Assembly: GCA_029263195.1 (NCBI GenBank)
Contig: JAJCXX010000068.1
Coordinates: 40,939 to 104,938 of the forward strand
From: Acidimicrobiales bacterium
GTDB lineage: Bacteria; Actinomycetota; Acidimicrobiia; Acidimicrobiales; Aldehydirespiratoraceae
Direction of reading: 5' to 3'
DNA: 64,000 bases
Positions 38,822-54,838 of the stretch are shown one piece after another. The position numbers and the translations under genes are program-made. Positions within the stretch are counted from its first letter, which is position 1, and each line of letters opens with the position of its first letter. Below the pieces are notes generated by a model. It searched no databases. It was not told the DNA's origin and saw only the letters and a program-made list of their open reading frames with translations.

Positions 38822-38889
38822 CCCAATCCGGAACGCTTCGCGCCGCAGGCGAAACCAGATCAAACCAGATCGGCGGCTATGGTCTAGCA

Positions 38890-39156
38890 ATGAACACGCA
38901 ACCGGACCGAACGGCAAGAATCATGGCGACATTCCGTGTTGCGGTCGAGGAGATCCTTGGCGAAGCACCCGAATTCGACGAGTCCACCGTGATTGAAATG
39001 GTCGGTATCGACAGCCTCGACCTCATCGAAGTCGGCATGATCATGGAAGACGAATACGGCGTCGAAATGACCGAGTCAGACTTTGAAGGTGTCGCCGTGG
39101 TCGGCGACGTCCTCGCCGTCTTCGCCACACTCGTGGACAAGCTTGCAAACAAATGA
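38890..39156 (+). CDS. Acyl carrier protein
   Basis: 88 aa, acidic, with the phosphopantetheine-attachment motif GIDSLDLIE. Confidence 0.85.
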   Translation: MNTQPDRTARIMATFRVAVEEILGEAPEFDESTVIEMVGIDSLDLIEVGMIMEDEYGVEMTESDFEGVAVVGDVLAVFATLVDKLANK

Positions 39157-41996: not shown

Positions 41997-43446
41997 TGCC
42001 TCTTTGTGTCGAGGAGAAGTTTTCGGGTGTGTCGGGACGCGTGTGGATGAACTCTCTGGCGTTGAGGGGCCGAGGGTTCTAGCGTTGGTTGTTGGGTCCG
42101 GGAAGTGACTTGTCCGAAGAGCCGGTGTTCAGGATGTTGAGCCGGTCACGCTGGACTACAGAGTCGTTCCTGGGTGTCCTCCCGGACCCACCCACATCAG
42201 GTTGTGGTTGCGGCGCGAGCGTCGGCGACGAGGTGGCGAAACACCCGGTCTGAGATCTGTCGTTTGAGTGCCCGGATGGCTTCTTTGTGGGTTTTGCCTT
42301 CGCCGATTTTGCGGTCGTAGAAGATTCGGCCTTCGCTTTGGTTGCGGAACTGGACCACTGCGGCGATGTGGATCGCAAAGTTCAGGGTCCGGTTTCCTCG
42401 CGGGTTCAAACGGTGACGAACCCGCGCACCTGAGGAAGCCTCGAGCGGCGCGGTTCCGTTGCAGGACGCGAACTGGGCTTTGGTGTCGAACCGGTTGACG
42501 TCGCCGACATATCCAATGATTGTCGCGGCGCAGATCGGGCCGATGCCATAGATGTCACACAGGCTGGTTCGCGACGCGGTCACCGCTGAGGTGATCCGTT
42601 TCTTCGACGCGGCCAGGGTGGTGTCCAAAGCAGCAATGTCGGCGATGAGTTCTCGAGCGACGAGCACCCGACACCGGGTTACTTCACCGAATGGTTCCAC
42701 CTCGTTGAGCAGCCTGTTTGCCTTGGCGACAGTGATCGTGGTTCCGATGCCGCCCGCTGCGAGTTCAGCCAACATGGCATGAAGACGAACACAATGGGTC
42801 GAACGTAACTGGGCCATGTCGCGGTGACGTTTCACCAACAACCGCAAGATTCGGGCATGGTCATCGTCACCGACCAGCGCCGGCCGGTCCGATCGCATCG
42901 CCGCGATCGCCACCGACCGGGCGTCGTTGGGGTCGTTCTTGTTTGACCGGCCCGATCCAAACACCCGGACCCGACAAGCCAGCATCGGGGAAACATCGAG
43001 GACGGTCTCACCGGCGGCGACAAGCTGGCGTGCAACCAGGCAGCCGAGCCCGTTCGCTGATTCGACCGCCCATTGCCGTTTCTCGAACCCGTCCGCCCAC
43101 TCGCACAACAGCCCGACCTGAGCCTTCGATGCCGAGACTTTGAACTCGCCGAGTACTACCTCGTGTTCGTCAACAGCAACCGCAGTGTGGGTTGCCTTAT
43201 GTGGATCGATACCGATCATGACTTTCATAGAAATGCCTCCGGTTTGGTGGCTGACCGTGGCGGACACTCCTGATTCGGGTCGATGTGCTCTCGCCTCTTT
43301 CGAGCCACACCACGGCAGAAAGACCCGACCGGCAGACAACTCGAAAACAAGCCAACCCAAAGGCGACAGGCACCCACAGAGCCAACCGACCGGACCCTTC
43401 CAGACGCTACGAAACCACCGCAACGCCCACCAGAATCATCAATCAG
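41997..43446 (-). mobile_element. IS110-family element a (~1.45 kb), inserted in the right IR of the MITE
   Basis: Boundaries are inferred from the interrupted IR (TTTCCG | ... | GCCCCACA). 218 bp of non-coding sequence lies 5' of the transposase and 200 bp lies 3' of it. Confidence 0.5.
42197..43228 (-). CDS. IS110-family transposase (DEDD + C-terminal Ser domain)
   Basis: MKVMIGIDPHKATHTAVAVD start and a typical IS110 C-terminal domain (ICAATIIGYVGDVNRF, LNPRGNRTLN). The internal ATG at 43228 is preferred over the ORF start. Confidence 0.88.
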   Translation of the reverse strand: MKVMIGIDPHKATHTAVAVDEHEVVLGEFKVSASKAQVGLLCEWADGFEKRQWAVESANGLGCLVARQLVAAGETVLDVSPMLACRVRVFGSGRSNKNDPNDARSVAIAAMRSDRPALVGDDDHARILRLLVKRHRDMAQLRSTHCVRLHAMLAELAAGGIGTTITVAKANRLLNEVEPFGEVTRCRVLVARELIADIAALDTTLAASKKRITSAVTASRTSLCDIYGIGPICAATIIGYVGDVNRFDTKAQFASCNGTAPLEASSGARVRHRLNPRGNRTLNFAIHIAAVVQFRNQSEGRIFYDRKIGEGKTHKEAIRALKRQISDRVFRHLVADARAATTT

Positions 43447-43533: not shown

Positions 43534-45120
43534 GTGTGCTACGATTCGATCCGTTCGGAGACGGATCTGGTGGATCCGAGGGGGCAGATCGTGAGCGGAA
43601 CGTCTGAGACTCCAGCCAAGTGGCTGCAATGGCGAGGGCACAGGAAGTACAAACAACGCATCGGTCTTTTCAAGTCAGTACTCCTGCTGTGTGTAGCGGC
43701 GGTAGTCACGGTCTCGCCTGCGGCAGCAAGAGTTGGTGCAACTCAGCAGCGTCCAGAGCAAACGGTTTTCGATCAGTTGCGCGAGGAACTCGACAACGGG
43801 TTGCAGATCGAGTCACTGGTGAGCATTTTGCTTCTTGACGAGAGCACCCTTCGAAAGACCTATCCTGAGGCGGCCCGCCGCTACGACTTCACGATCAGCC
43901 GAGGCCGTCGTGCTCAGCTCGGGTTGGAATTCTTGCTGACAGTGCCTGATCGATACTTCGATGAGTCACTCATGGCGACTACTATGGCTCGAGCGTTTGG
44001 CCCTGATGCGGATGTCCAGCGCCACGTTAGGTTGCAGTTATTTCACTCGCTCCTCAAGCCCAACCTAGAGGACGCATTGGGCGAAGACTTCGGCGGGACA
44101 TGGATAGATCACGAGACCTTCACAATCAACATTGGAGTCCGAGACGACGTCGGTCAGGCGCATCCACGAGCTCTCGAATCCGTGTCCTTGACGGTCCCGC
44201 TCGTCGAACTAGCAGACGCCGGCATTCGCCTCGAGGGGCATTCACGTGCTTCATCCTGGGCCGAGTTGAGCAATCTCGCCGACACAGTGGCGGCTTCGAT
44301 TCCAGGTCAGTCGATTCAGGTTACGCCTAGGGTGAAGACAGGCGGAATTCGCGTAATCGCTATGGGTGCCTCGACTGCTGAGCTCGGTTCACTTCGCAGT
44401 TCGGCAGTATCGAGCACGGTCGAGTTTCTACGACGGAGCGTCACTGCCAACGATGAGGCTGCGCAACGGCTCGCTGTCGACATGGTGGAGGTAGTGGCTC
44501 ACTCTGGATCCGAGGCGACAGTGACACTTCGCGGAGGAGTGCCCCTTAGCGGCTGTACCTCAGGATTCACGGCTCAGAATGGAAGCTGGCGCGGAATCGT
44601 CATAGCAGACCACTGCCATCTGGCGGGAACAGGGAATGGCTGGTGGTCGGGCGGGGGCGAATCTCTGTATTCTCTGAATGACTATTACAGCGGAGGAAAC
44701 GGAGAATTCGAATTCTTGGGCGTCGACTCATCCGTTACAGTTCCGAATGAGATTTCGTATGCCTCGGAGATCAGCATTATACAGTCGATCCGTTACTGGG
44801 ATCAGGTTGCGGTTGGCGAGATCTATTGCCGCGAGGGGAAGACCACCGGGTTTAATTGTGGCACAGTCGATGAGACTCACTTCCTTTCCTTCTTTCCGGT
44901 GCCTGGCTGCACCGGCACGTGTCCGCGCTTCATCGCATCTATCCCGAGGCCAGGCTCGGTGATCACCCAACCCGGGGATAGCGGCGGGCCTTGGTTCGTG
45001 GGATCAGTGGCAGTCGGGATTCAATCAGGCAGGTATGTTGGTCTCAACTACGATGTTTGGGGAGTTGCTGGATTCGCGCAATTCGAACTTGATGCGAGCA
45101 TTCTTACATCATCGAAGTAG
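43534..45120 (+). CDS. Secreted S1-family (chymotrypsin/streptogrisin-like) serine protease with a long pro-region
   Basis: Signal-like LLLCVAAVVTVSPAAA, His context IADHC, and the Ser motif GDSGGPWF in the C-terminal ~190 aa. Start uncertain. Confidence 0.75.
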   Translation: MCYDSIRSETDLVDPRGQIVSGTSETPAKWLQWRGHRKYKQRIGLFKSVLLLCVAAVVTVSPAAARVGATQQRPEQTVFDQLREELDNGLQIESLVSILLLDESTLRKTYPEAARRYDFTISRGRRAQLGLEFLLTVPDRYFDESLMATTMARAFGPDADVQRHVRLQLFHSLLKPNLEDALGEDFGGTWIDHETFTINIGVRDDVGQAHPRALESVSLTVPLVELADAGIRLEGHSRASSWAELSNLADTVAASIPGQSIQVTPRVKTGGIRVIAMGASTAELGSLRSSAVSSTVEFLRRSVTANDEAAQRLAVDMVEVVAHSGSEATVTLRGGVPLSGCTSGFTAQNGSWRGIVIADHCHLAGTGNGWWSGGGESLYSLNDYYSGGNGEFEFLGVDSSVTVPNEISYASEISIIQSIRYWDQVAVGEIYCREGKTTGFNCGTVDETHFLSFFPVPGCTGTCPRFIASIPRPGSVITQPGDSGGPWFVGSVAVGIQSGRYVGLNYDVWGVAGFAQFELDASILTSSK

Positions 45121-45127
45121 GCGCCGC

Positions 45128-46318
45128 ATGGCACGACAGGCAGGTTTCGCCGCCATAGTGTTCGGGCTCACCGCTGTGGGATGTTCAAGTGGTGGTGACG
45201 GTGGCGGTGCTGCGCAGGAGCGGTTGCCAATTCCGAGCGTCACTCCCAGTTCCTCGGCGCCGGGTGATGGCCCCAACGACGTTCGCGCTGTTGGTTGGCT
45301 TCACGAAACGGCGGGCGGCGCTATCAAGCTTTGCTCTGAGATGTTCGTGCCGTGTTCTGGGATTGAGGTCTTGTTCGCTGACGATTCGGTCGAGCACATC
45401 ACGGAAGGGCCTGTCCTGCTTGATGCTGAGATGGTCGGTGGCGTGCTTCGGGCTGCGGTCCCATCAGCATCGGGGCCATCGCCGTTTCTTGTGCCACCGA
45501 AACGAGTCCTCGACGAACGGTGCGAAAGACAAGACAGCCCTGGTCCGGTTTCGCAGGTTCCCGAGGACGTCACAGCGGGTTTGCTCAGCTACGTGGACCA
45601 ACACGCCGATCTCTACGCAGGGCGATGGCTGCTTGGGGAGGACGCTGTGCTGGTGGTCAGCTTCGTGGGAGACGCCACCGTTCATCGCGCGGCACTTGAA
45701 GAATTGTCTTCGGACTCGTTGCAAGTGTGTGTGCTCGGCGGGGCCCGGCTGGCGCTTCGAGACCTTGTCACACGACAAGATCGACTGTCTGAGGCGGCCT
45801 CGTCTCTCGGGTTTGGCGGCAGCGGAATCTACCAACACCTCAACGTGGTGTGGATCAGGGTGTCAGTTCTCGACCCCAACTCAAGACGCCATCTCGAGGA
45901 CGTCGGTGGCGATTCGTTTGTGGTCGTCCCGTTTGTCGAGTTTCTCTCTGATGACTGGCGCGGGGACGAATCGGTTGGGTGGCCACGAGACGAGAGCTCA
46001 CCTCTCATTACAGTTCCAATTGCGTCCGGTGGCTCGATGACCGCACTTGGGATTCTCTCATTTGATTGGGACGCGGAGGCGGGCTGTCTCTACGCGTTCG
46101 GACCTCAAACCGAGGGGCGAAGAATACTTCCCGTGTGGCCTGCGGGATACACGCTTGATACCGACGTCGGGGTCTTCGATTCCGACGACGAGTTGGTCGC
46201 TCCGCTGGGCGAGGAACTCATGTTGGGCGGCGGATTCGTCGCGCTCGACAAAGAGCTATACGACGAAACCTGCAGCGCATTCGGAGTCTTCATCATCGGG
46301 TCCGTCGAACAGGAGTAG
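45128..46318 (+). CDS. Lipoprotein of unknown function
   Basis: MARQAGFAAIVFGLTAVGCSSGG lipobox. ATG at 45128 lies 8 bp after the protease stop. Confidence 0.6.
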   Translation: MARQAGFAAIVFGLTAVGCSSGGDGGGAAQERLPIPSVTPSSSAPGDGPNDVRAVGWLHETAGGAIKLCSEMFVPCSGIEVLFADDSVEHITEGPVLLDAEMVGGVLRAAVPSASGPSPFLVPPKRVLDERCERQDSPGPVSQVPEDVTAGLLSYVDQHADLYAGRWLLGEDAVLVVSFVGDATVHRAALEELSSDSLQVCVLGGARLALRDLVTRQDRLSEAASSLGFGGSGIYQHLNVVWIRVSVLDPNSRRHLEDVGGDSFVVVPFVEFLSDDWRGDESVGWPRDESSPLITVPIASGGSMTALGILSFDWDAEAGCLYAFGPQTEGRRILPVWPAGYTLDTDVGVFDSDDELVAPLGEELMLGGGFVALDKELYDETCSAFGVFIIGSVEQE

Positions 46319-46514
46319 ACGGCATCGCAACGATTTCGGTTCCAGGCCTTACGTCGCTGTGGTGGTGCAGTATTGGTCCACAGCACGGAGGATGGCATTG
46401 ATTCGTGCGTCTCGACGGTAGACGATGCCGCTTTCTCCATCGATCGCACAGTTGTAGAACAGTGCGACGGAGGTGTTGCGGTCGTGTGGGGGCCGAATAT
46501 TGTGTCGTGGCTGG

Positions 46515-46658
46515 TCATGCTGCGTTTTGGTGTTCGTTGATGAGGCCGTGGCAGCGGGTTGATTTCACGACCCGAAGATGGCGCCCCTGCACTGGCGGCG
46601 GCGCCTCGGGAGCCTCAGGTGGTTGTTGGTCGAGTGAGCGGTGGGGTCGGTGCTGGTT
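46515..46658 (-). pseudogene. IS481-like transposase, C-terminal 47 codons (continuation across the nested IS110)
   Basis: NQHRPHRSLDQQPPEAPEA...VVKSTRCHGLINEHQNAA*. Joins in frame to ...FDFLWRY at 48101. Confidence 0.65.
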
Positions 46659-46861
46659 GTAGGGCCATGAGAATGGTGGCGGGCGCCTCGGTGCTCGGGC
46701 GGTTACGTTCGTAGTCACCGGGTTCGGGGCTTCCTGGGAGGACAATGGTTGGGCAGGCCGAGACTTTCACTATGGGCTTCGAGCCCGTTGTTGTAGCTGG
46801 CCGCCCCTGCGACTGGCCCGGTTGTGCTGCGAGCACGTATCCGTAGTTGTCGTTCGCCCGG

Positions 46862-46888
46862 CTTCTCCCTCACTGATGAAGGGAGAAG
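46862..46888 (+). promoter_or_regulatory. Hairpin sequestering the Shine-Dalgarno sequence of the IS110b transposase
   Basis: CTTCTCCCT (46862-46870), a 9-nt loop, then AGGGAGAAG (46880-46888). The ATG is at 46892. Confidence 0.5.
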
Positions 46889-46891
46889 GCA

Positions 46892-48091
46892 ATGCGTTCG
46901 ATAGGTCTTGATGTCCATCGCGACTTCTGTGAGGTGGCGATCTTCGAAGACGGTGAGGTGACCAAGCATCCGCGGGTCCCGGCTCGTCGAGCAGAGCTGG
47001 CAGCATTCGCGGCATCGTTGCGGCCGACTGATCAGGTCGGTCTTGAGGCGACCGGGAACGCTTTGGCGATCGCCCGGATCATTGAGCCTCATGTGGCCCG
47101 GGTTGCGGTGGCCAACGCGGCCGTCACGAATCTGATCGGGACGGCTCGAGCAAAGACCGACCAGCTCGACGCCCGCACTCTTGCTCAGCTTCTTGGTACG
47201 GGGTTCTTCCCTGAGGTGTGGCTGGGTTCGGAGCAGACGCGTTTGGCGCGCCGGCGGATGAGTCGGCGTGCGCAGCTCGTGCGTGAGCGGACAGGTCTGA
47301 AGAATCAGATCCATGCTGTGCTGCACCGGAACCTGGTTGAGCGGCCGCCGGCATCGGACTTGTTTGGGGTGAAAGGCCTGCGGTGGCTTGGAGGTGTCGA
47401 TCTGGTCGATGACGAGCGGGAGACGGTGTCGTCGTGTCTTCGCCAGCTCCAGTTATTGGGTGAAGAGCTCGAGCGTCTTGACCAGGCCATCGCGAGCGCG
47501 GCTCTGGAGGATCGCGCGGTCCATCTGCTGCTCACCGTGCCGGGGGTCAACCTCACGACCGCGTCGGCGTTTATGGCTGCTGTTGGGAACATCGGCCGTT
47601 TTGATAGTCCGAGCCAGCTCGTGAGCTACCTGGGCCTGGATCCCAAGGTCCACCAGTCCGGGATCGCTCCTGCTCGCCATGGTTCCATCTCCAAACAGGG
47701 GTGTGCTGGAGCACGCTCTGCTCTGGTCGAGTCGGCCTGGGTGGTTGCTCGAGCCCCTGGCCCGATGCACGCCTTTGCTGAGCGCATCCGGGCTCGGCGC
47801 GGCGCCAACGTGGCGACCGTCGCGGTAGCGAGAAAGCTCGCGGTGCTGTTCTGGCACATGCTCACGAAGGACGAGGAGTACGCCTATGGCAGGCCTTCGC
47901 TGACTGCGGAGAAGCGCCGTAGGGTGGAACTCACCGCCGGCGCACCCAGCGTTCGCGGAAAGCGCAGCGGTGGACGCGTCTACGCTTCAACAGAGCAGCG
48001 TGTCCGAGAGCAGCAAGTGGCCATCAACGCCGAAAGGGCCTACCGCGAGTTCGTCTCCCAACGCAGCCGCGCTGTCCCTAGAACCACTTGA
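46892..48091 (+). CDS. IS110-family transposase
   Basis: MRSIGLDVHRDFCEVAI..., GLEATGNALAIARII, and a C-terminal transposase_20-like region (VPGVNLTTASAFMAAVGNIGRF, SISKQGCAGARSAL). Confidence 0.88.
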   Translation: MRSIGLDVHRDFCEVAIFEDGEVTKHPRVPARRAELAAFAASLRPTDQVGLEATGNALAIARIIEPHVARVAVANAAVTNLIGTARAKTDQLDARTLAQLLGTGFFPEVWLGSEQTRLARRRMSRRAQLVRERTGLKNQIHAVLHRNLVERPPASDLFGVKGLRWLGGVDLVDDERETVSSCLRQLQLLGEELERLDQAIASAALEDRAVHLLLTVPGVNLTTASAFMAAVGNIGRFDSPSQLVSYLGLDPKVHQSGIAPARHGSISKQGCAGARSALVESAWVVARAPGPMHAFAERIRARRGANVATVAVARKLAVLFWHMLTKDEEYAYGRPSLTAEKRRRVELTAGAPSVRGKRSGGRVYASTEQRVREQQVAINAERAYREFVSQRSRAVPRTT

Positions 48092-48100
48092 CTTTCATCC

Positions 48101-48967
48101 GTAGCGCCAGAGGAAGTCGAACAGCCGACGGAGTTGGCGTTGATTCCAGATCAGCGTGCGGTCGTGCAGTTCGTGGCGGACGGTGCGGATCCATCGCTCA
48201 GCGAACGCGTTTGCTCAAGGAGCGCCAGGTGGGACGGTGATGACCGAGCCGCCGATGCCGGCGAGGACATCATCGAATGATCGGGCGTATTTGCCGGCGC
48301 CGTCGCGGATCACGAACCTGATGGCTTTGTCGTGGCCTATAAGCAGGTTCCGGGCAGCTTGGGTGGTCCGGTTGCCGGTGGGGTTGGTGGTGATCCTGGC
48401 GAGGTGCACGCGTCGAGTCTCGATCTCGATGAGGAACAGCACATGGGAGCGATGCAGAGCAACGGCGTTAGCGCAGAAGAAGTCGGTCGCGACCAAGGCA
48501 TGGGAATGGCTGGCAATGAACTCGCTCCACGAGGGTCCGCCGCTGCGGTTTGGGGTGGGTTCACGTCCGGCCTCTCGCAGGATCTTCCACACTGACGACG
48601 CGGCGATGCGGTGTCCGAGACGGCACATCTCACCGTGCATACGCCGGTACCCCAAGTTTGGGTTCTCAGTATCGGGCCGCAGCACTAGCCGGCGGAGCTC
48701 GGCTGATTTGGGTGGCCGTCCCGTTCTGGGCACAGGTGGTTGGGTCCGGTGGCGCGCGACGTGACGTCGATGCCAGCCGATCACCGTCGCCGGCTTCATG
48801 ATCAACATGGCCTGGCTCAGTCGTCGGGGATCGAATGCCCGCGAGAGCACGGCCAGGATCGTCCGATCCGTCGGTGTGAATCTAGGGCGGTCAATCTGGC
48901 GCTGCACCACCAGGACCTGATGGCGAATAGCGAGGATCTCCGCGTCGCGCTTGTCGCCGGACACCAA
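48101..48967 (-). pseudogene. IS481-like transposase, N-terminal and catalytic part, with an in-frame TGA
   Basis: DKRDAEILAIRHQ, GYRRMHGEM, rve core. TGA at 48215-48217 falls inside ...PPGAP*ANAFAERWIRTVRHELHDRTLIWNQRQLRRLFDFLWRY. The frame is then cut by the IS110 insertion. Confidence 0.75.
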
Positions 48968-49323
48968 GAGCAGCCTGAGGGTGCCGGAAACTCATCCGTG
49001 TACTCTGGCCTGGCGTTTCGCGGGATGCGAGTCGGGAAACGGCGGTGTCGGAAGAGTTCTAGATATCTGATCCACTGACATAAGACATGCTGAATTCGAG
49101 GCACGACGGGGTATTCGGCCCCCACACCCCACACCCCACATCCCCGGCCCAACTTCGTGATCGGCGTCGATGGGTCATCGTCGTACGAGAGAGCAAGTGA
49201 CCCACAGCGTGCTATGGTCGAACGTACGTACGCTTGATAGTGGCCTGATCCAACGCCTCGGTGTCGCACCTCGGTGTCAGACTCAGAGCCTCCGAGCGAT
49301 TCTCTAGCCGTAGGAGCAGGAAC

Positions 49324-49461
49324 ATGCCTAACGATCCGAATCCCCCGAATCGACCAGTCGATCCACCTCAAGGGCCTCCGGCTGATCCGCCGGATCCTCC
49401 CGGGCCTCCTCCAGGCCCGCCGGGTCCGCCGAAGCCGCCTCCGGGCCGCAAGGTCGGCTGA
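49324..49461 (+). CDS. 45-aa proline-rich small ORF ending in Gly (MPNDPNPPNRPVDPPQGPPADPPDPPGPPPGPPGPPKPPPGRKVG)
   Basis: AGGAG lies 8 nt upstream of the ATG. The stop is 6 nt before the TTG start of the E2-E1 gene. No homology can be inferred by eye. Confidence 0.45.
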   Translation: MPNDPNPPNRPVDPPQGPPADPPDPPGPPPGPPGPPKPPPGRKVG

Positions 49462-49467
49462 TCTATC

Positions 49468-51276
49468 TTGCAAGCTTGGTGGGATAGGTGGCCGGGGCGG
49501 CGGGAAGCGGAGCTGGATTCGTTCCGGCGTAACGGTCTCGCTTTCGCGGAGGACGCGGACGCGATAGCCGCCGGACGGCTCGTGTTGCAGGGTGCGGTCG
49601 TGGTCGGGGGTGAGGCCGAGCCCGTCAAGCTTGTGGTCCACTACCCCTACCACTATCCATGGACGAGGTTCGAAGTTGCAGCGCCAGAGCTCGACCTGCC
49701 GCGCCATCAGCACCCGTTTGGGAAGAATCTCTGCGTCTTCCCTCGCGGAAGTGAGCATTGGCGCAGAGACTGGCTTGCCGGAGACGTGATTGCCGCGCGA
49801 GTGCCGGAGTTGATTCGTGCTGTTCGCGAGGGAGGCGAAACACTTCTCGCCGTTGAAGAGCCTCAGGGGGAGCCGTACACGGACTACTACGATTTCCGTC
49901 CGCTCGGCGGGATCCTCGTTCCGGCTGAAATCCTTCACGCTGCGTCTGGTATCGACGGCGGTGAATGCACCGTCCGCCTGGCCGACTCTGTCGAGTGGCT
50001 CGGGCTTCTCTCTGGAGCAAGCATCAGCGATCTAGATCTGCCACCGATAGGCACCGGGGCTGTCACAGTCCTTCGCCGCGACAACCAGACGCTCGCCACT
50101 GCACCCGATGAGCTTGTCGCCGGCCTGGCAGGACCTAGCCTGTCCTGCGTCTGGAAGCGCCTTGCCGCACCTCCGGTGGCGAAAGATGCGGCCGAGTTCT
50201 TGGACGCTTTCGTGGCCCAAGGCGGGCGGACGCCGCACACGATGTCCTGGCATGGGCGAGGCCCGGCAATCGCACTGGTTGGCCTGGTCTTCCCTGAAGA
50301 AGTCCGTCAGGGTGAGTATGCGGACGCGTGGGTCTTTGTCGTGCTGGGCAAGCGAGCCAAGGGACGACCGCCGAAACCGAAGGCCGGCGAAGAGGAGCGA
50401 CCCGGTCACCGCATCTCAGCGGGGTTGGTGCGTGGCATGCGCTGTGGTGTTGCCGACCTGTTGGAGCGAATTCCCGAGCTCGCGGCGCTGCGGGACAAGC
50501 GTGTTCTCGTTGCCGGACTGGGGAGCCTCGGAGCGCCACTTGCTAAGGAACTTGCGCGCAACCTCGTGCAAGAGCTGAGAATCATCGATCATGACTTTGT
50601 CGATGCTGGAACGGTCGTGCGATGGGAGACGGGTCTGCGCGCCGCCGGCGTGTCGAAGGCGCTGTTCCTCGCGCTCGAGTTCCAGCTGAACTACCCGTAC
50701 ACGAGGGTAGTTCCCTCGGGCGCAGTTATCGGAGCGGCGGCCCAAGGAACTTCCGACGATGATCTGGACGTTCTCACCGAATTCCTTGCTGATGTTGATC
50801 TGGTCATCGACGCAACGGCAGAGGACAATGTGACTGCCGCGCTGGCGGACTGCGCCCAGATGGTCGGGGTGCCGATGCTTGCCATCTGGAGCATTGAAGG
50901 CGTCGGCGGAGTCGTTGGCCGCATCGTGCCGGGAGAGACCGGATGCTTCCACTGCTTGGAGCTGCACTTGAGCCCAGACCACGGGGGGAGTATTCCTGTG
51001 CCCGCACCGCCGACCGACCAGCGTCGCGTGCAGGCCCGCGGTTGTGCAGACCCGACTTTCACCGCGTCAGCTGTGGATCTACTGCCCCTGGTACACCATG
51101 GAGCGCGGCTCGCCTTCGGTGAGCTATGCCGCGGGACTCGTGATGGCTACCCGAGGTATGAGCGCGATGTCCACGTGCTGTCGTTGCGACGTCCGGACGG
51201 TGCCTTGTTCGAGCCGCCTGAGTGGGGATCTTTCGAACTCTCTGTTCATCCGGACTGTCCGTGCCACGACGACTGA
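49468..51276 (+). CDS. E2(UBC-like)-E1(ThiF/MoeB-like) fusion protein, Cap2-like
   Basis: N-terminal HQHPFGKNLCVF resembles the E2 HPN...Cys loop. C-terminal half has the Rossmann motif VLVAGLGSLGAPLAKEL...IIDHDFVD and Cys pairs CFHC ... CPC. The 602-aa size and domain order match CBASS Cap2. Confidence 0.7.
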   Translation: MQAWWDRWPGRREAELDSFRRNGLAFAEDADAIAAGRLVLQGAVVVGGEAEPVKLVVHYPYHYPWTRFEVAAPELDLPRHQHPFGKNLCVFPRGSEHWRRDWLAGDVIAARVPELIRAVREGGETLLAVEEPQGEPYTDYYDFRPLGGILVPAEILHAASGIDGGECTVRLADSVEWLGLLSGASISDLDLPPIGTGAVTVLRRDNQTLATAPDELVAGLAGPSLSCVWKRLAAPPVAKDAAEFLDAFVAQGGRTPHTMSWHGRGPAIALVGLVFPEEVRQGEYADAWVFVVLGKRAKGRPPKPKAGEEERPGHRISAGLVRGMRCGVADLLERIPELAALRDKRVLVAGLGSLGAPLAKELARNLVQELRIIDHDFVDAGTVVRWETGLRAAGVSKALFLALEFQLNYPYTRVVPSGAVIGAAAQGTSDDDLDVLTEFLADVDLVIDATAEDNVTAALADCAQMVGVPMLAIWSIEGVGGVVGRIVPGETGCFHCLELHLSPDHGGSIPVPAPPTDQRRVQARGCADPTFTASAVDLLPLVHHGARLAFGELCRGTRDGYPRYERDVHVLSLRRPDGALFEPPEWGSFELSVHPDCPCHDD

Positions 51277-51734
51277 CCGTCTACATCGAGCGAGTCGATT
51301 GGGCAACGCTGGTCGGCGAAGCTGTGCGGACGCTGCCGCTGGAGACCGGTGGCATCGTCATGGGTCGATGGCTCGACTCCACTGCGGCGCGGATCACCGA
51401 TGTCATAGGACCGGGGCCAGACGCAAAGCACGAACCGAGATCGTTCGATCCCGATCAGGACTGGCAGGAGAGCGAGGTCGCCCGGATTTGGACGTCGAGG
51501 GCTGGGGACGTCGAGTATCTGGGCGACTGGCACACACATCCAGATGGACGGGCGTACCCAAGCCGTGGAGACTCCAAGGCGGCAGAGTTGATCGCTTCCT
51601 CTTCCGAGGCGGGAGCGGAGCGACCAATCATCATGATCGTTGCTGTCTCCCCGAAAGGGTCGATGAAGGCACGGGTGCACGTGTGGATTGGCAAGCGTTT
51701 CAGCCGGGCGAGGCTCGTTGTCCGTTGGACATGA
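51261..51734 (+). CDS. JAB/JAMM (MPN+) isopeptidase, Cap3-like
   Basis: LETGGIVMG (Glu) and GDWHTHPDGRAYPSRGDS (HxH...SxxD). GTG at 51261 overlaps the end of the E2-E1 gene by 16 nt. Confidence 0.78.
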   Translation: MPRRLTVYIERVDWATLVGEAVRTLPLETGGIVMGRWLDSTAARITDVIGPGPDAKHEPRSFDPDQDWQESEVARIWTSRAGDVEYLGDWHTHPDGRAYPSRGDSKAAELIASSSEAGAERPIIMIVAVSPKGSMKARVHVWIGKRFSRARLVVRWT

Positions 51735-51802
51735 TCGAGAGGCTGAAGGCACCTTTTCGTTGATCGATCGACTGGCGCAGCTTGCTGGGTTGGGGTCGAG
51801 GT

Positions 51803-52614
51803 GGCACCGTTGTGTTGGTCAATCGGTTGGCGCGGCTCACGTGGCTGGTGTCGGTGTCCGGTCGGATCACCTCGGCAAGTTCGTCGAAGGCTGCCGCGAC
51901 GCGTAGACGGTCGTGGCGGGCTTCGGCGCCGAGTTCGTAGCGACCGCGTCGAACGTTCTGCATGAACGCGTGGCCACGAATCGCGACCGACGCGGTCCGG
52001 TCGGTTCGCAGACCTTGCATCGGCCGGAGTCTTGCTTTGGTCTGCCGTGGTCGTTGCCGATCCGGTTGTCGAATACTGCTCGGTGTCGTGCACTACGTCA
52101 GGGATCATCTCATCGATCACCCGAAGCAAGGGTGCAGCCAGATCGGTGGTGGCCTCAATCGGCCGCCCGTGGTTGCTCATGGCGTTCGCAAAGAATCTCC
52201 TGGCGGCAGCGATGTGACGCTTCTTCGACACGTACACGTCGATGACCTGGCCGTGCCGGTCAACAGCCCGGTACACACGTAACGCCAAACGCCGTTGACC
52301 TCGGCGAAAGTCTCGTCCACGAATCACCGGTCACCCACCACGTGACGGCACGGCCGGGCCGCGTCGATCAGAAGCGGTGTAAACCTGCCCTTCGACTTGC
52401 ACTACGGCTGGTTCGTCGCACCGATAGACCTCCGGCGAGGGCACATCGTGGAGTTCGGGCGACAGGCTGCAAGCGTATTCGGCTGGGCGGCTAAGGCGAG
52501 CCTGAGCTGGATGCTGGATGTGGCCCGCTATACGCAGATTGCGCTCGGTAGGAGATCTATGGCTAGTGTCTCCCACAGTCCGAGACAGGATTGGCGGGCG
52601 AGCAAGCGCGTGCC
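51803..52614 (-). pseudogene. IS6-family element (812 bp) with a decayed transposase
   Basis: Terminus GGCACCGTTGTGTTGG at 51803 and an imperfect inverted match ending at 52614. Transposase pieces lie in three frames: GDR*FVDETFAEVNGVWRYV (TGA where Trp is expected), YRAVDRHGQVIDVYVSKKRHIAAARRFF...HDTEQY, and MQGLRT...AIRGHAFMQNVRRGRYELG. Confidence 0.7.
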
Positions 52615-52637
52615 AGATCGACCTAGACACGAGAACC

Positions 52638-53975
52638 ATGGCACTGGCGGAACATATTGCGAATCTGCTTGAGTATCGGCGGACCCTCTTGGAGGAGGAG
52701 TTCGAGATCCGTCAAGGCCTCAATCGCGCACTTGAAGTAGTCGTGCTCGGCACTGGCGACTGGGTCGCGAGATACCGCGAGAACTTCGGCGATTATGCCG
52801 CAACATTCGGGAACCTGATAGTCACGTACGTTGACACAGCTCCCAGCATGCCGGATGACCAATATCGAAAACCATGGGCCAAGCGATTGCACGATCACGA
52901 CGACGATGTCAACGAAGTTGACCAGACGCCCGGCCTGATCGAGGTTGTGATGGCGGATTGGTGTGTCTCATGCATGGACGACATCGCAACGCTGAACCCC
53001 GATGTCGTGCTAGTTGCCACCCCCGACAAGACCCATACAGTCCAGGCCGCTAGGTGGATCGGGAGCGATGTCGCTCCTGCGCCGACACCGCTGGTGATCA
53101 TCGAGAAACCGTTGGCGACCGAAGTGGCGCAGATCGACGAGCTTGAGTCGGCACTAGCGATGTCGCCTACGCCCGTTGCCGTTCGTGGGATGGACCACTA
53201 CCTAGCACGAGCCCATGGGATTCTGGGGATCACGGACACTTTGTCCGGACATATCCAGGAAGTGGCTGAAATCCACTTCCATATGTGGGAGGATGACCCC
53301 ATCGAGCCCGAGCGGCTCCCGAGCCTCCAGACCGGCATCACCTATGATATGGCGTCACACTTCTTTGGTATCCTCACTCTGGTTGCAGGCGACGACTTGC
53401 CTGGAGGCATCGTTGTGAAGGCGGCCGGACAGCACGTGCCGCTCGTTTCAGACAGCACCTTTGGAGTCCCCGAGGACTTCGACGCCGAAACCTACTCGGA
53501 CATAGGTTTCGACATGGTAGTGCCCTTCCAGGGCCGAACAATTTGGTGCGAGTCGCATGTCGGGAAGGGTCAGCCGCGAGAGGTTAAGTGTCTCGACATC
53601 GTGGATCCTGAGGGAAGTCTTGTTCGTTTGGACTACACGCGGGGAGTCTCGTACCGCGTCGAGGCAGTCGATACGACGTTCGACGACGGCTGTCTCGTCA
53701 TGTGTCGCGAAGCTCACACTGATGGCGGGACTCCGTGTCCTCATCACCTACGTCATCTACAAGAACTGCCTGACGTCGACGTGTTCGAGCGCCTTGCACC
53801 CTTTGAGTACGCCGATGTGTTGCGGGCGGCGGCAGGGGGCGAGAATGAGGTACTTGGTACGTTGATACCGACGTCTGATTCGAAGTGGGTCGTGGGCTCA
53901 CTTGAATCGATGCGGACGGCGCTAGCAGACGCACGCGCCAATTGGACGAATCACCCTGTGGGAGAGTTGCCATGA
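52638..53975 (+). CDS. Gfo/Idh/MocA-like Rossmann-fold oxidoreductase homologue
   Basis: VVVLGTGDWVA, VLVATPDKTHTVQAARWI and VIIEKPLA (the family's EKP motif). ATG at 52638 is preferred because the longer ORF would overlap the IS6 end. Confidence 0.55.
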   Translation: MALAEHIANLLEYRRTLLEEEFEIRQGLNRALEVVVLGTGDWVARYRENFGDYAATFGNLIVTYVDTAPSMPDDQYRKPWAKRLHDHDDDVNEVDQTPGLIEVVMADWCVSCMDDIATLNPDVVLVATPDKTHTVQAARWIGSDVAPAPTPLVIIEKPLATEVAQIDELESALAMSPTPVAVRGMDHYLARAHGILGITDTLSGHIQEVAEIHFHMWEDDPIEPERLPSLQTGITYDMASHFFGILTLVAGDDLPGGIVVKAAGQHVPLVSDSTFGVPEDFDAETYSDIGFDMVVPFQGRTIWCESHVGKGQPREVKCLDIVDPEGSLVRLDYTRGVSYRVEAVDTTFDDGCLVMCREAHTDGGTPCPHHLRHLQELPDVDVFERLAPFEYADVLRAAAGGENEVLGTLIPTSDSKWVVGSLESMRTALADARANWTNHPVGELP

Positions 53976-54838
53976 CTGTCATTGACATCACGGAAGATAA
54001 CTCAATTTCGAAGGGTTCTGGCCGACAGGCGGTAAGTGCGCCCAGACACAACCGAGGCAATAACATGCCGGCGAGAGTAAACCGCGGTCTAGCGTGGTCC
54101 GACGGGAGCTTCCCTCTCCCTCCCGACGAGTCGCCGACGTTACGCGAACTCTTCCATCTCCTTCGGCGCGAGGTCGGCTTCACGAGACTCACGATTCTCG
54201 TTGATTCGTGGGATACGGAGCGGTCGATCGATCTTATAGACCGGATTCTTGAGTACGAAGAGCCAAGCGGGGGCGAGTTCGTGTTCTTGCTCCGATCGCA
54301 GGGTGGGCCTTCCGGCAGCCTGCCCGCCGGTCTGGCCTCACGAGAGGGCGTCCTTGTTCTCGACGAGAAGCGACGCTCTCACCAGATCCGGCTTGAGCAT
54401 TCATCAGTCAACGTACTCCTGTTCGACGGCAGCCGGAGCGTGCCGACCGAGGAACTTAAGGGGTTCGCTGATCGGACCAATGTTGTGCTTGTAGAGGGCG
54501 CCGGCCCAAGCTCCAAAGATCTTGTCCATGCGCTCGATGGGCTCTCGCTCACTACTCTCCTCTGCAGCCGCTACTCAGGAAAGACCTGGCGGTGTTTTGT
54601 GAATGAGGAGCGGGGAGAAGATCTCGTTCCATGCCTGACGCGTCATGTTCAGCGAATGGATCGGAGCCTCATGGAAGACGGAGAGCACGAGCAGATCGCA
54701 GTCGACTACCAGAACTGGCTACGCGCAGCGGTAGCTGGTGGCCTCGAGACAGAGACTGCAGCCACAGCCAAGTCCGCTGTGCAGAGATTTCTCTCAGCGC
54801 GCATCGGTGACGAGCGTACGGAGAGACTTCTTACCTAA
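53972..54838 (+). CDS. Hypothetical protein (288 aa)
   Basis: ATG overlaps the upstream stop (ATGA), suggesting coupling. No motif I can name. Confidence 0.45.
   Translation: MTVIDITEDNSISKGSGRQAVSAPRHNRGNNMPARVNRGLAWSDGSFPLPPDESPTLRELFHLLRREVGFTRLTILVDSWDTERSIDLIDRILEYEEPSGGEFVFLLRSQGGPSGSLPAGLASREGVLVLDEKRRSHQIRLEHSSVNVLLFDGSRSVPTEELKGFADRTNVVLVEGAGPSSKDLVHALDGLSLTTLLCSRYSGKTWRCFVNEERGEDLVPCLTRHVQRMDRSLMEDGEHEQIAVDYQNWLRAAVAGGLETETAATAKSAVQRFLSARIGDERTERLLT

What the first reader, a model, noticed from the sequence alone, without database searches (positions are those of the whole stretch)
49324..51734. Orphan Cap2-like E2-E1 fusion and Cap3-like JAB protease, with no CD-NTase, preceded by a coupled 45-aa proline-rich ORF ending in Gly
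The gene at 49468-51276 encodes an N-terminal UBC/E2-like domain (HQHPFGKNLCVF) fused to a ThiF/MoeB E1-like domain (VLVAGLGSLGAPLAKEL, CFHC...CPC). The gene at 51261-51734 encodes a JAMM protease (HTHPDGRAYPSRGD). This is the Cap2/Cap3 architecture of type II CBASS, and it is also related to Bil/Bub ubiquitin-like conjugation operons. However, no CD-NTase, cyclic-nucleotide effector or beta-grasp Ubl gene is present. The only upstream partner is a small ORF with a strong AGGAG site, 6 nt from the E2-E1 start. It encodes a peptide that is roughly half proline (expected to be disordered or PPII-like), contains Lys, and has a C-terminal ...RKVG. E1 enzymes adenylate a C-terminal Gly or Ala. My hypothesis is that this peptide is a Pup-like, non-beta-grasp modifier or substrate of the E1/E2 pair, which would be an undescribed variant. 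The alternative is that the pair is a CBASS remnant whose upstream genes were displaced by the IS481-like element ending at 49126, only 198 bp upstream.
Basis: partly seen in the sequence, partly recalled or inferred. Interest (0 to 1): 0.85.

Follow-up and report, generated by a model that had tools for sequence, protein, structure and literature searches.

The report
Proline-rich peptide partner of Cap2-like enzyme
A tiny, unannotated proline-rich peptide ending in glycine always sits in front of a bacterial ubiquitin-type E2-E1 enzyme and its protease, and it is most likely the molecule this enzyme activates, so this would be a ubiquitin-style system whose tag is an unfolded peptide rather than a folded protein.

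Summary
Window 49324-51734 holds a 45-aa ORF (51% Pro, ends GRKVG), a 602-aa E2-E1 fusion and a 157-aa JAMM protease. The E2-E1 AlphaFold model (pLDDT 90) best matches full-length Cap2 (7to3).

There is no CD-NTase here or in any homologous locus, so the "CBASS remnant" reading is rejected.

All 29 non-redundant homologous loci that could be assessed have an ORF abutting the E2-E1 start. It ends in P-x-x-P-P-K-P-P-x-[G/H/D]-R-x-[V/Y]-G, with 0-5 extra residues.
- 25 loci: a bare 36-60 aa peptide.
- 2 loci: the same tail ends a Thoeris ThsB TIR protein.
- 1 locus each: a metallo-beta-lactamase, and a ~140-aa protein.

The peptide frame is under purifying selection: window vs L004 has 25 synonymous and 6 non-synonymous codon differences. 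Tail type co-segregates with E2-E1 clade (bootstrap 97-100%).

The best reading is a Cap2/Cap3-type conjugation cassette whose E1 substrate is a tail-only, unfolded peptide. Conjugation, its targets and any defence role are inferred, not shown. I found no paper describing the peptide-only form. Thoeris operons with Cap2/Cap3 were noted in a December 2025 preprint.

Verdict: a new variant of a known kind, of high interest.

The parts
49312..49316 (+). Shine-Dalgarno-like AGGAG, 7 nt upstream of the peptide's ATG
   Evidence: Read directly from the sequence. Of the 16 peptide-only homologues examined, 14 start at an ATG and 2 at a GTG. 15 of the 16 have a purine-rich SD-like motif within 20 nt upstream (L044 only for its upstream ATG).
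49324..49461 (+). Small ORF of 45 aa plus stop. It is a Pro-rich, unfolded peptide ending ...PPKPPPGRKVG and is the predicted E1 substrate or modifier.
   Evidence: Conserved in 29/29 homologous loci, either as a peptide or as the C-terminal tail of a larger protein. Window vs L004 shows 25 synonymous and 6 non-synonymous codon differences, with nucleotide differences of 5/4/30 by codon position. The AF2 model has no helix or strand and pTM 0.25. This exact sequence is absent from a collection of about 15 billion predicted proteins, so it was never called as a gene.
49468..51276 (+). E2-E1 fusion protein (Cap2-like), 602 aa, TTG start. Approximate domains: E2 domain residues 1-130, linker ('wing') domain 131-325, E1 adenylation domain 326-602.
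   Evidence: Pfam ThiF and PADLOC E1-E2 models hit it. The PDB profile search gives Cap2 7to3 at 6e-20 and UBE2L3 at 3e-4 for residues 10-110. The AF2 model has pLDDT 90.4 and pTM 0.88. The top Foldseek PDB match is Cap2 7to3_A, E 2e-21, TM 0.61/0.64 over the full length, followed by Atg7. The start is supported by homologues beginning MQ.WW..W.GR.E.
49732..49734 (+). Codon of Cys89, the predicted E2 catalytic cysteine. It lies in HQHPFGKNLC, which resembles the canonical HPN...C motif.
   Evidence: Cys89 and His80 are invariant in 33 homologues with 30-58% identity to the window protein.
50515..50532 (+). GLGSLG (Gly350/352/355), the nucleotide-binding loop of the E1 adenylation domain
   Evidence: G350, G352, G355, D376, R385 and K397 are invariant and D448 is at least 90% conserved. 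The region aligns to the Cap2 and MoeB adenylation domains.
51043..51045 (+). Codon of Cys526 in RGCADPTF, the predicted E1 catalytic cysteine
   Evidence: Invariant in 33 homologues. It lies in a stretch without regular secondary structure and with lower model confidence (10-residue block means 75, 66 and 84 over residues 511-540), after the CxxC zinc motif at C493/C496. Its assignment as the crossover-loop cysteine is by analogy with Cap2 C548 (bioRxiv 10.1101/2022.03.31.486616) and was not tested here.
51261..51734 (+). JAB/JAMM metalloprotease (Cap3-like), 157 aa, GTG start overlapping the E2-E1 stop by 16 nt. The longest possible ORF starts at 51222.
   Evidence: Prok-JAB scores 1.8e-14 and PADLOC JAB 1.5e-26. 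The Glu of ETGG and the H-x-H-x7-S-x2-D motif are invariant in 8 homologues, whose N-termini align at the 51261 start.

Best explanation
This is a complete three-gene conjugation cassette of the Cap2/Cap3 type: peptide, E2-E1, JAB. The protein substrate seen in type II CBASS (a CD-NTase) is replaced here by a free 45-aa unfolded, proline-rich peptide. That peptide consists of little more than the C-terminal recognition tail.

Proposed mechanism:
1. The three genes are translated as one closely spaced unit.
2. The E1 domain binds the peptide's conserved C-terminus (P-P-K-P-P-P-G-R-K-V-G) and adenylates Gly45.
3. The peptide passes as a thioester to Cys526 (E1) and then to Cys89 (E2).
4. It is then transferred to an amino group of a target, forming an isopeptide bond.
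5. The JAB protease reverses this. In homologues whose ORF runs 2-5 residues past the Gly, it would also expose the Gly.

Because the cassette has no signalling enzyme and no effector, peptide tagging itself is the likely output. The genomic contexts suggest anti-phage or anti-mobile-element defence.

Shown here: gene content, folds, catalytic residues, translation-level selection on the peptide, portability of the tail, and tail-enzyme co-evolution. Inferred: adenylation, thioester formation, conjugation, the targets and the biological role.
For: 1. Universal linkage. All 29 non-redundant loci carry a tail ORF ending between 4 nt inside the E2-E1 ORF and 15 nt before its start: 4-nt overlaps (TTGA, GTGA, ATGA) in L044, L046 and L047, a 7-nt overlap in L045. 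Hosts include Acidimicrobiia, Arthrobacter, Solirubrobacteraceae, Acidobacteriota, Hymenobacter, Sinorhizobium, a Betaproteobacteria MAG and a MAG deposited as a delta proteobacterium.
2. Specificity. A tail regex hit 26 times in 427,566 bp read in six frames. Every hit lay directly upstream of the E2-E1 gene, with none elsewhere.
3. Coding selection. The four closest peptides show 19-25 synonymous versus 6-15 non-synonymous codon differences per pair, and differences fall mainly at third codon positions.
4. The tail is a portable C-terminal module. It ends a ThsB TIR protein in the operon ThsB-ThsA-ThsB(tail)-E2-E1-JAB (L048). Five tailed TIRs sit among more than 7000 hits, nearly all of those listed being about 147-154 aa and tail-less; the closest tail-less relative is 87% identical. 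The tail also ends a metallo-beta-lactamase (L027). A 2025 preprint independently reads the ThsB tail with its conserved Gly as the Cap2 conjugation tail (10.64898/2025.12.03.692087).
5. Co-evolution. E2-E1 clades match tail types: GR.YG 100%, PGR.VG 100%, and D/H/Y at position -4 97% bootstrap.
6. The enzyme has the Cap2 fold with all catalytic residues invariant, and the JAB has an intact JAMM site.
7. Precedent. Cap2 adenylates and conjugates the C-terminal Gly or Ala of a non-beta-grasp substrate, whose extreme C-terminus sits in the E1 active site.
8. Only the E2-E1 and JAB genes, plus the tail ORF found separately, are shared between loci. There is no CD-NTase and no conserved effector.
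9. Contexts are mobile or defence-rich: AbiEii, RES-Xre, HipA, type I restriction-modification, BrxR, HTH plus M78 peptidase pairs, integrases and IS elements.
Against: - No biochemical or expression data exist for any member.
- No complex model could be run, so binding of the tail in the E1 pocket rests on analogy.
- CD-NTase binding to Cap2 also uses contacts outside the tail. A bare tail may therefore bind weakly or behave differently.
- With no target or effector gene, the output is unknown.
- Lys is not universal in the peptides (L007 has none, though that locus looks degraded), so chain formation is not general.
- The NGR234 peptide ends KHVG and lacks the otherwise constant Arg at position -3.
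- The window copy is flanked by IS elements, and its promoter was not identified.
Confidence: 0.7

Rival explanations
1. The small ORF is translated, but it acts in cis or as a regulator rather than being conjugated. One version is a polyproline, EF-P-dependent leader whose translation sets how much E2-E1 and JAB are made through the close spacing. Another is a pseudo-substrate that occupies the E1 site.
For: - PPG and PPP runs are known strong ribosome-stalling motifs (established knowledge).
- In four homologues the stop codon overlaps the E2-E1 start by 4-7 nt, and elsewhere the gap is 0-15 nt (6 nt in the window).
- No target gene is present in the cassette.
Against: - Consecutive prolines are not conserved. 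L029, L035, L036 and L050 are mostly K/D-rich, and L029 and L036 have only a single PP pair.
- The C-terminal R-x-[V/Y]-G is nearly invariant and co-varies with the enzyme clade.
- The same tail ends full-size TIR and metallo-beta-lactamase proteins, which are not leader peptides.
- Some homologues carry 2-5 residues after the Gly. This fits proteolytic maturation and does not fit a stalling role.
Confidence: 0.13
2. The cassette makes a ribosomally synthesised, modified peptide. The ThiF-like domain adenylates the peptide C-terminus as MccB does with MccA, or PaaA with PaaP, and the JAB trims it. The product would be a small molecule, not a protein tag.
For: A short precursor peptide next to a ThiF-family adenylating enzyme and a peptidase recalls microcin C and pantocin biosynthesis. 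MccB and PaaA appear among the PDB profile hits at 1.8e-09 and 1.3e-07.
Against: - The best structural match by far is full-length Cap2, not MccB.
- There is an E2 domain with invariant His and Cys.
- No export, immunity or further tailoring genes are conserved.
- The same tail occurs on TIR and metallo-beta-lactamase proteins.
- The peptides are long (36-60 aa) with variable N-terminal parts and end in Gly, not Asn.
Confidence: 0.05
3. The pair is a decayed remnant: a type II CBASS, Thoeris or metallo-beta-lactamase system that lost its upstream genes, here through the IS481-like insertion. On this reading the small ORF is a leftover 3' end or a chance ORF.
For: - An IS481-like element ends 196 nt upstream at 49127, and an IS6 fragment follows the JAB gene.
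- The tail also exists as the 3' end of larger genes.
Against: - 25 independent loci in several phyla have the same peptide-only layout, each with its own start codon, nearly all preceded by an SD-like motif.
- The peptide is under purifying selection along its whole length.
- No locus has a CD-NTase.
- The TIR-tailed and MBL-tailed enzymes nest inside clades that are otherwise peptide-only.
Confidence: 0.03

Closest known systems
Type II CBASS Cap2 (E2-E1) / Cap3 (JAB) acting on a CD-NTase
   Same: - A single-chain E2-linker-E1 enzyme with the Cap2 fold.
- An adjacent, overlapping JAB gene.
- A substrate without a beta-grasp fold that ends in Gly and is encoded immediately upstream.
- The predicted chemistry.
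   Different: - There is no CD-NTase, no cyclic-nucleotide effector and no signalling step.
- The substrate is a bare 45-aa unfolded peptide.
- The tail is more constrained (Pro-rich, then R-x-[V/Y]-G), whereas in CBASS only the last residue is conserved.
- The E2 motif is closer to the canonical HPN...C.
- CBASS HMMs match only the E1 half.
Thoeris operons with Cap2 and Cap3 (bioRxiv 10.64898/2025.12.03.692087, Fig. 6F/S10A)
   Same: The enzyme clade is the same: L048 lies inside the PGR.VG clade together with the window. The Pro-rich tail ending in Gly is also the same.
   Different: In those operons the tail belongs to a ThsB TIR signalling enzyme and a ThsA effector is present. In the window the tail stands alone, with no TIR and no effector.
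Iyer, Burroughs and Aravind 2006 operon type 6a (E2-E1-JAB with a metallo-beta-lactamase; PMC1779556)
   Same: L027 pairs a related E2-E1 and JAB with a metallo-beta-lactamase that ends in the same kind of tail.
   Different: The window has no metallo-beta-lactamase. That paper does not mention a tail or a small peptide partner in the section read.
Pup (prokaryotic ubiquitin-like protein) and pupylation
   Same: Both are small, intrinsically unfolded, non-beta-grasp candidate protein tags found in bacteria, including Actinomycetota.
   Different: From established knowledge: Pup is joined through a C-terminal Glu side chain by PafA, a glutamine-synthetase-like ligase, after deamidation by Dop. 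Here the partner is an E1/E2 enzyme and the C-terminus is Gly. There is no sequence similarity between the two.
Bil and Bub bacterial ubiquitination-like operons
   Same: E1, E2 and a peptidase are encoded together with a small Gly-terminated substrate. In Bil, tagging itself appears to be the defence output.
   Different: Bil and Bub substrates are beta-grasp Ubls with one to three domains, and their E1 and E2 are separate proteins. Bub uses oxyester intermediates.
MccB/MccA (microcin C) and PaaA/PaaP
   Same: A ThiF-family adenylating enzyme acts on the C-terminus of a short ribosomal peptide encoded next to it.
   Different: Those systems have no E2 domain and no JAB. They make a small-molecule product and carry export and immunity genes. 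Structural similarity is limited to the adenylation core.

Membership tests
Type II CBASS | E2-E1 fusion enzyme of the Cap2 fold | tested here: met
   The top Foldseek match is 7to3_A (Cap2), E 2e-21, TM 0.61/0.64 over the full length. The catalytic Cys/His residues and the adenylation residues are conserved.
Type II CBASS | Cap3-type JAB/JAMM isopeptidase next to Cap2 | tested here: met
   PADLOC JAB scores 1.5e-26 and Prok-JAB 1.8e-14. The JAMM motif is intact.
Type II CBASS | CD-NTase (cGAS/DncV-like cyclase) in the operon | tested here: not met
   No such gene is found in the window flanks. None is found in any homologous locus, and only the E2-E1 and JAB genes are shared between loci.
Type II CBASS | Cyclic-oligonucleotide-activated effector gene | tested here: not met
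   No conserved fourth gene exists across 16 loci. PADLOC gives no hits for the two genes downstream, window 52518-53975 and 53942-54838.
Type II CBASS | Substrate encoded in the operon ends in Gly or Ala | tested here: met
   The peptide ends ...GRKVG. Gly is terminal or near-terminal in all 29 loci.
Thoeris with Cap2/Cap3 | ThsB TIR protein and a Thoeris effector in the operon | tested here: not met
   Both are absent from the window. They are present in homologue L048.
Ubiquitin-like (beta-grasp) modifier systems: Bil, Bub, SAMP, TtuB | Substrate has a beta-grasp fold | tested here: not met
   The peptide is 45 aa with 51% Pro and 3 hydrophobic residues. Its AF2 model has no helix or strand.
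Ubiquitin-like (beta-grasp) modifier systems: Bil, Bub, SAMP, TtuB | C-terminal Gly activated by an E1-type adenylating enzyme | not testable with these tools
   A Gly-ending substrate and an intact E1 site are both present. Adenylation itself needs biochemistry.
Pupylation | PafA/Dop ligase and a C-terminal GGQ/GGE on the tag | tested here: not met
   The peptide ends KVG. The adjacent enzymes are ThiF/E2 and JAB, not PafA or Dop.
MccB-type RiPP biosynthesis | Adenylating enzyme without an E2 domain, C-terminal Asn on the precursor, export and immunity genes | tested here: not met
   An E2 domain is present. The C-terminus is Gly. No conserved transporter or immunity gene is found.
Iyer 2006 type 6a (E2-E1-JAB plus metallo-beta-lactamase) | Metallo-beta-lactamase gene partner | tested here: not met
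   None is present in the window. One is present in the distant homologue L027.

The most novel reading that the evidence does not exclude
The peptide is a free-standing protein modifier. On this reading, a 36-60 aa unfolded Pro/His/Lys-rich peptide is joined through its C-terminal Gly to phage or host proteins by a single E2-E1 enzyme and removed by a JAB protease. It would be the first ubiquitin-chemistry tagging system whose tag has no beta-grasp fold and no folded domain at all, and tagging itself would be the defence or regulatory output. TIR and metallo-beta-lactamase proteins would have acquired the same tail secondarily, by fusion with the peptide gene.
Probability: 0.45. Interest if true: 0.9.

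Novelty: new variant of a known kind. Interest (0 to 1): 0.8.

Why it matters
[quoted passage not shown] The family found here fits that description.

- **Size of the family.** At least 150 full-length cluster representatives score E < 1e-156, and 1,302 score E <= 1e-30.
- **A minimal substrate.** The partner is reduced to the recognition tail itself. This would define the smallest element an E1/E2 enzyme needs.
- **Evolution.** It offers a possible model for how ubiquitin-like tagging could exist without ubiquitin-like folds.
- **Practical use.** It could provide a compact, genetically encodable, reversible peptide-ligation system.
- **Annotation.** The key gene was uncalled or absent from the gene table at most loci whose gene calls I saw, and is sometimes absorbed into a falsely extended E2-E1 N-terminus.
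- **Testability.** Cultured carriers make it directly testable: Sinorhizobium fredii NGR234, Arthrobacter sp. FB24 and Hymenobacter sp. NBH84.

Tried and rejected
- **The search for related loci with the 33-sequence alignment A1** failed, because no stretch was conserved enough. The closer set A2 worked.
- **Viral contigs:** no relatives, so there is no sign that this is a phage-borne system.
- **RNA and signals:** Rfam gave nothing meaningful on 48800-52000. The sigma-70 promoter scan found nothing, and the terminator-like hits were at background level.
- **CBASS remnant hypothesis:** rejected, see rival explanations.
- **Collagen-like triple helix:** rejected, because Gly is not held in a constant G-X-Y register in the window peptide (read from the sequence).
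- **Read-through or fusion of peptide and E2-E1:** rejected. The two ORFs are in frame in the window, L004 and L007, but out of frame or overlapping in the other loci.
- **Long N-terminal extensions on some database E2-E1 proteins:** these look like out-of-frame readings of the peptide region, not real fusions.
- **Searching protein databases with the peptide itself:** not attempted, because low-complexity Pro-rich words would swamp the word index.
- **Ledvina et al. 2023 final paper (PMC10292035):** not held, so its list of 'four other operon families' could not be checked.
- **Literature:** ten searches found no description of a peptide-only partner. The library lacks most subscription journals.
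- **My first tail regex** missed L036, because its peptide is below 25% Pro.


Full report
**1. What is in the window**

The + strand between 49312 and 51734 carries three tightly packed ORFs.

- **Small ORF.** An AGGAG at 49312-49316 lies 7 nt before ATG 49324. The ORF runs to TGA 49459-49461 and encodes MPNDPNPPNRPVDPPQGPPADPPDPPGPPPGPPGPPKPPPGRKVG (45 aa, 23 Pro, Lys37 and Lys43).
- **E2-E1.** Six nucleotides later, TTG 49468 opens a 602-aa ORF ending at 51276. Pfam finds ThiF at residues 338-530 (1.8e-15). PADLOC's CBASS 'E1-E2' models match only the E1 half, best 1e-23.
- **JAB.** GTG 51261 overlaps the E2-E1 stop by 16 nt and opens a 157-aa protein. It matches Prok-JAB (1.8e-14) and PADLOC JAB (1.5e-26), and it has ETGG and HTHPDGRAYPSRGD, a full JAMM motif. 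An alignment with seven homologues supports 51261 over the longer 51222 start.

The IS481-like element has inverted repeats at 46484-46512 and 49099-49127, with an IS110 nested inside it. It therefore ends 196 nt before the small ORF. An IS6-type transposase fragment follows the JAB gene.

**2. The enzyme is Cap2-like**

- An alignment of 33 homologues (30-58% identity to the window protein) has these invariant residues: His80 and Cys89 in HQHPFGKNLC, the GxGxxG loop (350-355), D376, R385, K397, C496, C526 and C597. D448 and C493 are conserved in at least 90%.
- A profile of this alignment hits Cap2 (7to3) at 6e-20 in the PDB. Its N-terminal 100 residues hit the canonical E2 UBE2L3 at 3e-4.
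- The AlphaFold2 model is confident (pLDDT 90.4, pTM 0.88).
- Its best Foldseek match among solved structures is full-length Cap2: 7to3_A, E 2e-21, TM 0.61/0.64 over about 650 aligned columns at 16% identity. Atg7, ThiF, UBA5 and BubCD follow.

The exact role of Cys526 as the crossover-loop cysteine rests on analogy with Cap2 C548.

**3. The small ORF is conserved everywhere**

I collected homologous loci from four sources:
- contigs encoding database homologues;
- a scan of one genome per species;
- a metagenome scan;
- annotated plasmids.

Twenty-nine non-redundant loci include the 5' end of the E2-E1 gene and upstream DNA. All 29 have an ORF on the same strand that ends between 4 nt inside the E2-E1 ORF and 15 nt before its start. 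In L044, L046 and L047 the stop overlaps the start by 4 nt as TTGA, GTGA or ATGA, and in L045 by 7 nt.

- In 25 loci the ORF is a free peptide of about 36-60 aa. In the 16 peptide-only homologues examined for start sites, 14 have an ATG and 2 a GTG, and 15 have an SD-like motif upstream.
- Aligned from the C-terminal Gly, 23 tails give P(-13), P(-10), P(-9), K/R(-8), P(-7), P(-6), [G/H/D](-4), R(-3), [V/Y](-1), G(0). Positions -3, -1 and 0 were used to anchor the alignment.
- The NGR234 peptide ends KHVG and lacks the Arg.
- Five loci run 2-5 residues past the Gly: SC, RG, QQ, QQ-like extensions and SAYVL among them. This is what one expects if the JAB matures the substrate.
- The N-terminal parts vary widely, with Pro-, His-Pro-, Lys/Asp- or Gly-rich repeats, and have at most 6 hydrophobic residues.

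A regex for the tail found 26 hits in 427,566 bp read in six frames (17,845 stop-delimited segments). Every hit lay directly upstream of an E2-E1 gene, and none lay elsewhere. That regex missed one K/D-rich case, L036, which I found by eye.

**4. It is translated**

Between the window and L004, whose E2-E1 proteins are 50% identical, the 46 aligned codons show:
- 14 identical codons;
- 25 synonymous differences;
- 6 non-synonymous differences.

Nucleotide differences fall 5/4/30 on codon positions 1/2/3. The other five pairs among the four closest peptides behave alike. This pattern fits purifying selection on the protein in this frame. It does not fit a DNA or RNA element or an antisense ORF. 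No Rfam family matches the region.

Gene callers left the ORF uncalled, or it is missing from the gene table, at most loci whose annotation I saw. It was called in L050-L052 and annotated in Hymenobacter sp. NBH84. The window's peptide is absent from a collection of about 15 billion predicted proteins. Several database E2-E1 entries carry 27-66 residue N-terminal extensions that look like out-of-frame readings of this region.

**5. The tail is a portable substrate module**

In four loci the same tail is the C-terminus of a larger protein encoded at the same position.
- **TIR.** L013 and L048 encode a 172-aa ThsB-type TIR (Pfam 1.5e-24) ending ...DRPPDPPRPPPGRTVG. The L048 operon is ThsB - ThsA (SIR2 + SLOG-like) - ThsB(tail) - E2-E1 - JAB. 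The search gave more than 7000 relatives of this TIR. Of the 120 listed, nearly all are about 147-154 aa and tail-less, and five carry the tail. The closest tail-less relative is 87% identical.
- **Metallo-beta-lactamase.** L027 encodes a metallo-beta-lactamase ending ...PRPRPKPNPDQGRTYG. Of its 120 best relatives, 16 end the same way. Most others carry different conserved C-terminal tails.
- **Unknown protein.** L034 encodes a ~140-aa protein ending ...PRPRPKPDGGRTYG.

A December 2025 preprint reports Thoeris operons with Cap2 and Cap3. It reads the ThsB C-terminal tail with its conserved Gly as the tail needed for Cap2 conjugation. That supports the same reading of the tail here.

**6. Tail and enzyme co-evolve**

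I built a neighbour-joining tree of 21 E2-E1 proteins, with 60 bootstrap replicates for the clade supports. It separates:
- a GR.YG clade (100%), containing two peptide-only loci and the metallo-beta-lactamase locus;
- a PGR.VG clade (100%), containing the window, six other peptide-only loci and the TIR locus;
- a clade with D, H or Y at position -4 (97%).

The domain-bearing substrates nest inside clades that are otherwise peptide-only. In this sample the bare peptide is therefore the usual partner of this enzyme family and possibly the ancestral one. Neighbour-joining on 21 sequences is a coarse method, so the direction of change is tentative.

**7. Nothing else is conserved**

An all-against-all comparison of ORFs within 6.5 kb of the enzyme in 16 loci finds only the E2-E1 and JAB genes shared by all, plus their antisense shadows. 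There is no CD-NTase, no beta-grasp gene and no common effector.

Neighbouring genes are diverse, but many are typical of defence islands or mobile elements:
- AbiEii, RES-Xre and HipA;
- type I restriction-modification;
- BrxR, and divergent HTH plus M78-peptidase pairs;
- integrase, relaxase and IS elements.

Known carriers include plasmids of cultured Sinorhizobium fredii NGR234, S. americanum, Arthrobacter sp. FB24, Hymenobacter sp. NBH84 and Iamia sp.. No relatives were found on viral contigs.

The family is not small. A full HMMER scan of 1.84 billion cluster representatives gives 1,302 hits at E <= 1e-30. The best 150 are all essentially full-length, at E < 1e-156.

**8. Mechanism**

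The precedent is Cap2. It adenylates the C-terminal Gly or Ala of a non-beta-grasp CD-NTase, whose extreme C-terminus sits in the E1 site. Cap2 forms a thioester and conjugates the CD-NTase to targets, and Cap3 reverses this.

The most likely mechanism here has four steps.
1. The E1 domain adenylates Gly45 of the peptide.
2. The peptide passes as a thioester from Cys526 to Cys89.
3. It is transferred to an amino group on a target.
4. The JAB deconjugates it and, where needed, trims the precursor.

The folds, the catalytic residues, the coding status of the peptide, its obligatory linkage, its portability and its co-evolution with the enzyme are shown here. Every chemical step, the targets and the biological role are inferred. 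Because the cassette lacks any signalling enzyme or effector, I consider peptide tagging itself the likeliest output, as in Bil systems. That last step is the weakest.

**9. Rival explanations**

- **Polyproline leader or pseudo-substrate.** This is weakened by K/D-rich peptides with at most a single PP pair (L029, L036), by the constant C-terminal motif, and by the tail's presence on full-size proteins.
- **MccB-like RiPP pathway.** This is weakened by the invariant E2 domain, the Cap2 fold and the lack of export or immunity genes.
- **CBASS, Thoeris or MBL remnant, or a chance ORF.** This is contradicted by 25 independent peptide-only loci under purifying selection.

**10. Comparison and novelty**

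The enzymes belong to the known Cap2/Cap3 kind. The system fails the defining tests for type II CBASS (no CD-NTase, no effector), for beta-grasp Ubl systems, for pupylation and for MccB-type pathways.

The peptide model has no secondary structure. With 51% Pro and 45 residues, it cannot be a beta-grasp.

[quoted passage not shown] The Thoeris-linked form was noted in late 2025, and the MBL-linked operon type in 2006 without mention of a tail. In the literature available to me, I found nothing on a peptide-only partner.

I rate this a new variant of a known kind. There is a substantial chance, about 0.45, that it is a genuinely new kind of protein tag.

Noticed in passing
L048:2921-7704 (and L049): A five-gene operon: ThsB TIR, ThsA (SIR2_2 + STALD), a second ThsB TIR carrying the Pro-rich ...PPPGRTVG tail, an E2-E1 gene and a JAB gene. 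It sits next to a type I restriction-modification system. This is a Thoeris analogue of type II CBASS. A December 2025 preprint mentions such operons.
   Followed up: partly
L027:4940-5989 and proteins P0185-P0304: A large family of metallo-beta-lactamase (ComEC-like) proteins has 887 hits. Three distinct conserved C-terminal tails were seen among the 120 best: [P/K]-rich...GR[T/R]YG; ...PPGYEKTPQRPPRRERYG plus 0-2 residues; and a hydrophobic segment followed by ...TRLDDQPAA. This suggests several tail classes for conjugating enzymes. Contexts were checked only for L027.
   Followed up: partly
L046:3252-4508 and L047:2522-3433: Divergently transcribed HTH_3 (XRE) and Peptidase_M78 gene pairs lie directly upstream of the peptide/E2-E1/JAB cassette. 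They resemble the CapH/CapP-type regulators described for CBASS and other defence operons.
   Followed up: no
Proteins P0307, P0313, P0315, P0335, P0336, P0354: Database E2-E1 entries carry 49-66 extra N-terminal residues, rich in Arg, Ala, Thr and Ser. These look like the peptide region read in another frame. It appears to be a systematic mis-annotation that hides the small ORF.
   Followed up: partly
window 46484-49127: An IS481-like element is bounded by 29-nt inverted repeats (46484-46512 and 49099-49127). Its transposase is split by a nested IS110-family element (transposase 46892-48091, + strand). A second IS110-family transposase lies at 42197-43423 (- strand).
   Followed up: partly
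window 51455-52327 (- strand): A fragment of an IS6-family transposase (DDE_Tnp_IS240, only profile positions 20-85 of 139) lies immediately downstream of the JAB gene. The cassette is therefore bracketed by IS remnants.
   Followed up: no
window 31899-34925 (+ strand): A 1008-aa protein has an N-terminal Mrr_cat restriction-endonuclease domain (2.6e-11) and a weak NACHT NTPase match. It looks like a STAND-type defence protein, about 14 kb upstream of the cassette.
   Followed up: no
window 43534-45120 and 45035-46318 (+ strand): Two large ORFs have no Pfam match. The first ends with a trypsin-like GDSGGP motif and has a hydrophobic N-terminal segment, so it may be a secreted serine protease.
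   Followed up: no
window 35324-40364 (+ strand): A cluster of ketoacyl-synthase-like genes (35324-36265 and 39153-40364) with a serine beta-lactamase/esterase-family gene (36987-38069). It may be a small lipid or polyketide locus.
   Followed up: no
L007:6001-8283: In this locus the E2-E1 ORF is truncated at 540 aa and the JAB is split into two ORFs. Its peptide is the only one without any Lys. It is probably a decaying copy.
   Followed up: no
L057:2540-2680 (Sinorhizobium fredii NGR234 pNGR234a, NC_000914.2, about 251.7 kb): An unannotated 45-aa ORF, MAGKADNPGREPGNPDHPGHPGHPPGPPNHPGPSVPPKVPPKHVG, lies directly before the ThiF-family gene WP_010875229.1 and the JAB gene WP_010875230.1 in a model rhizobium. 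Its tail lacks the usual Arg at position -3.
   Followed up: partly
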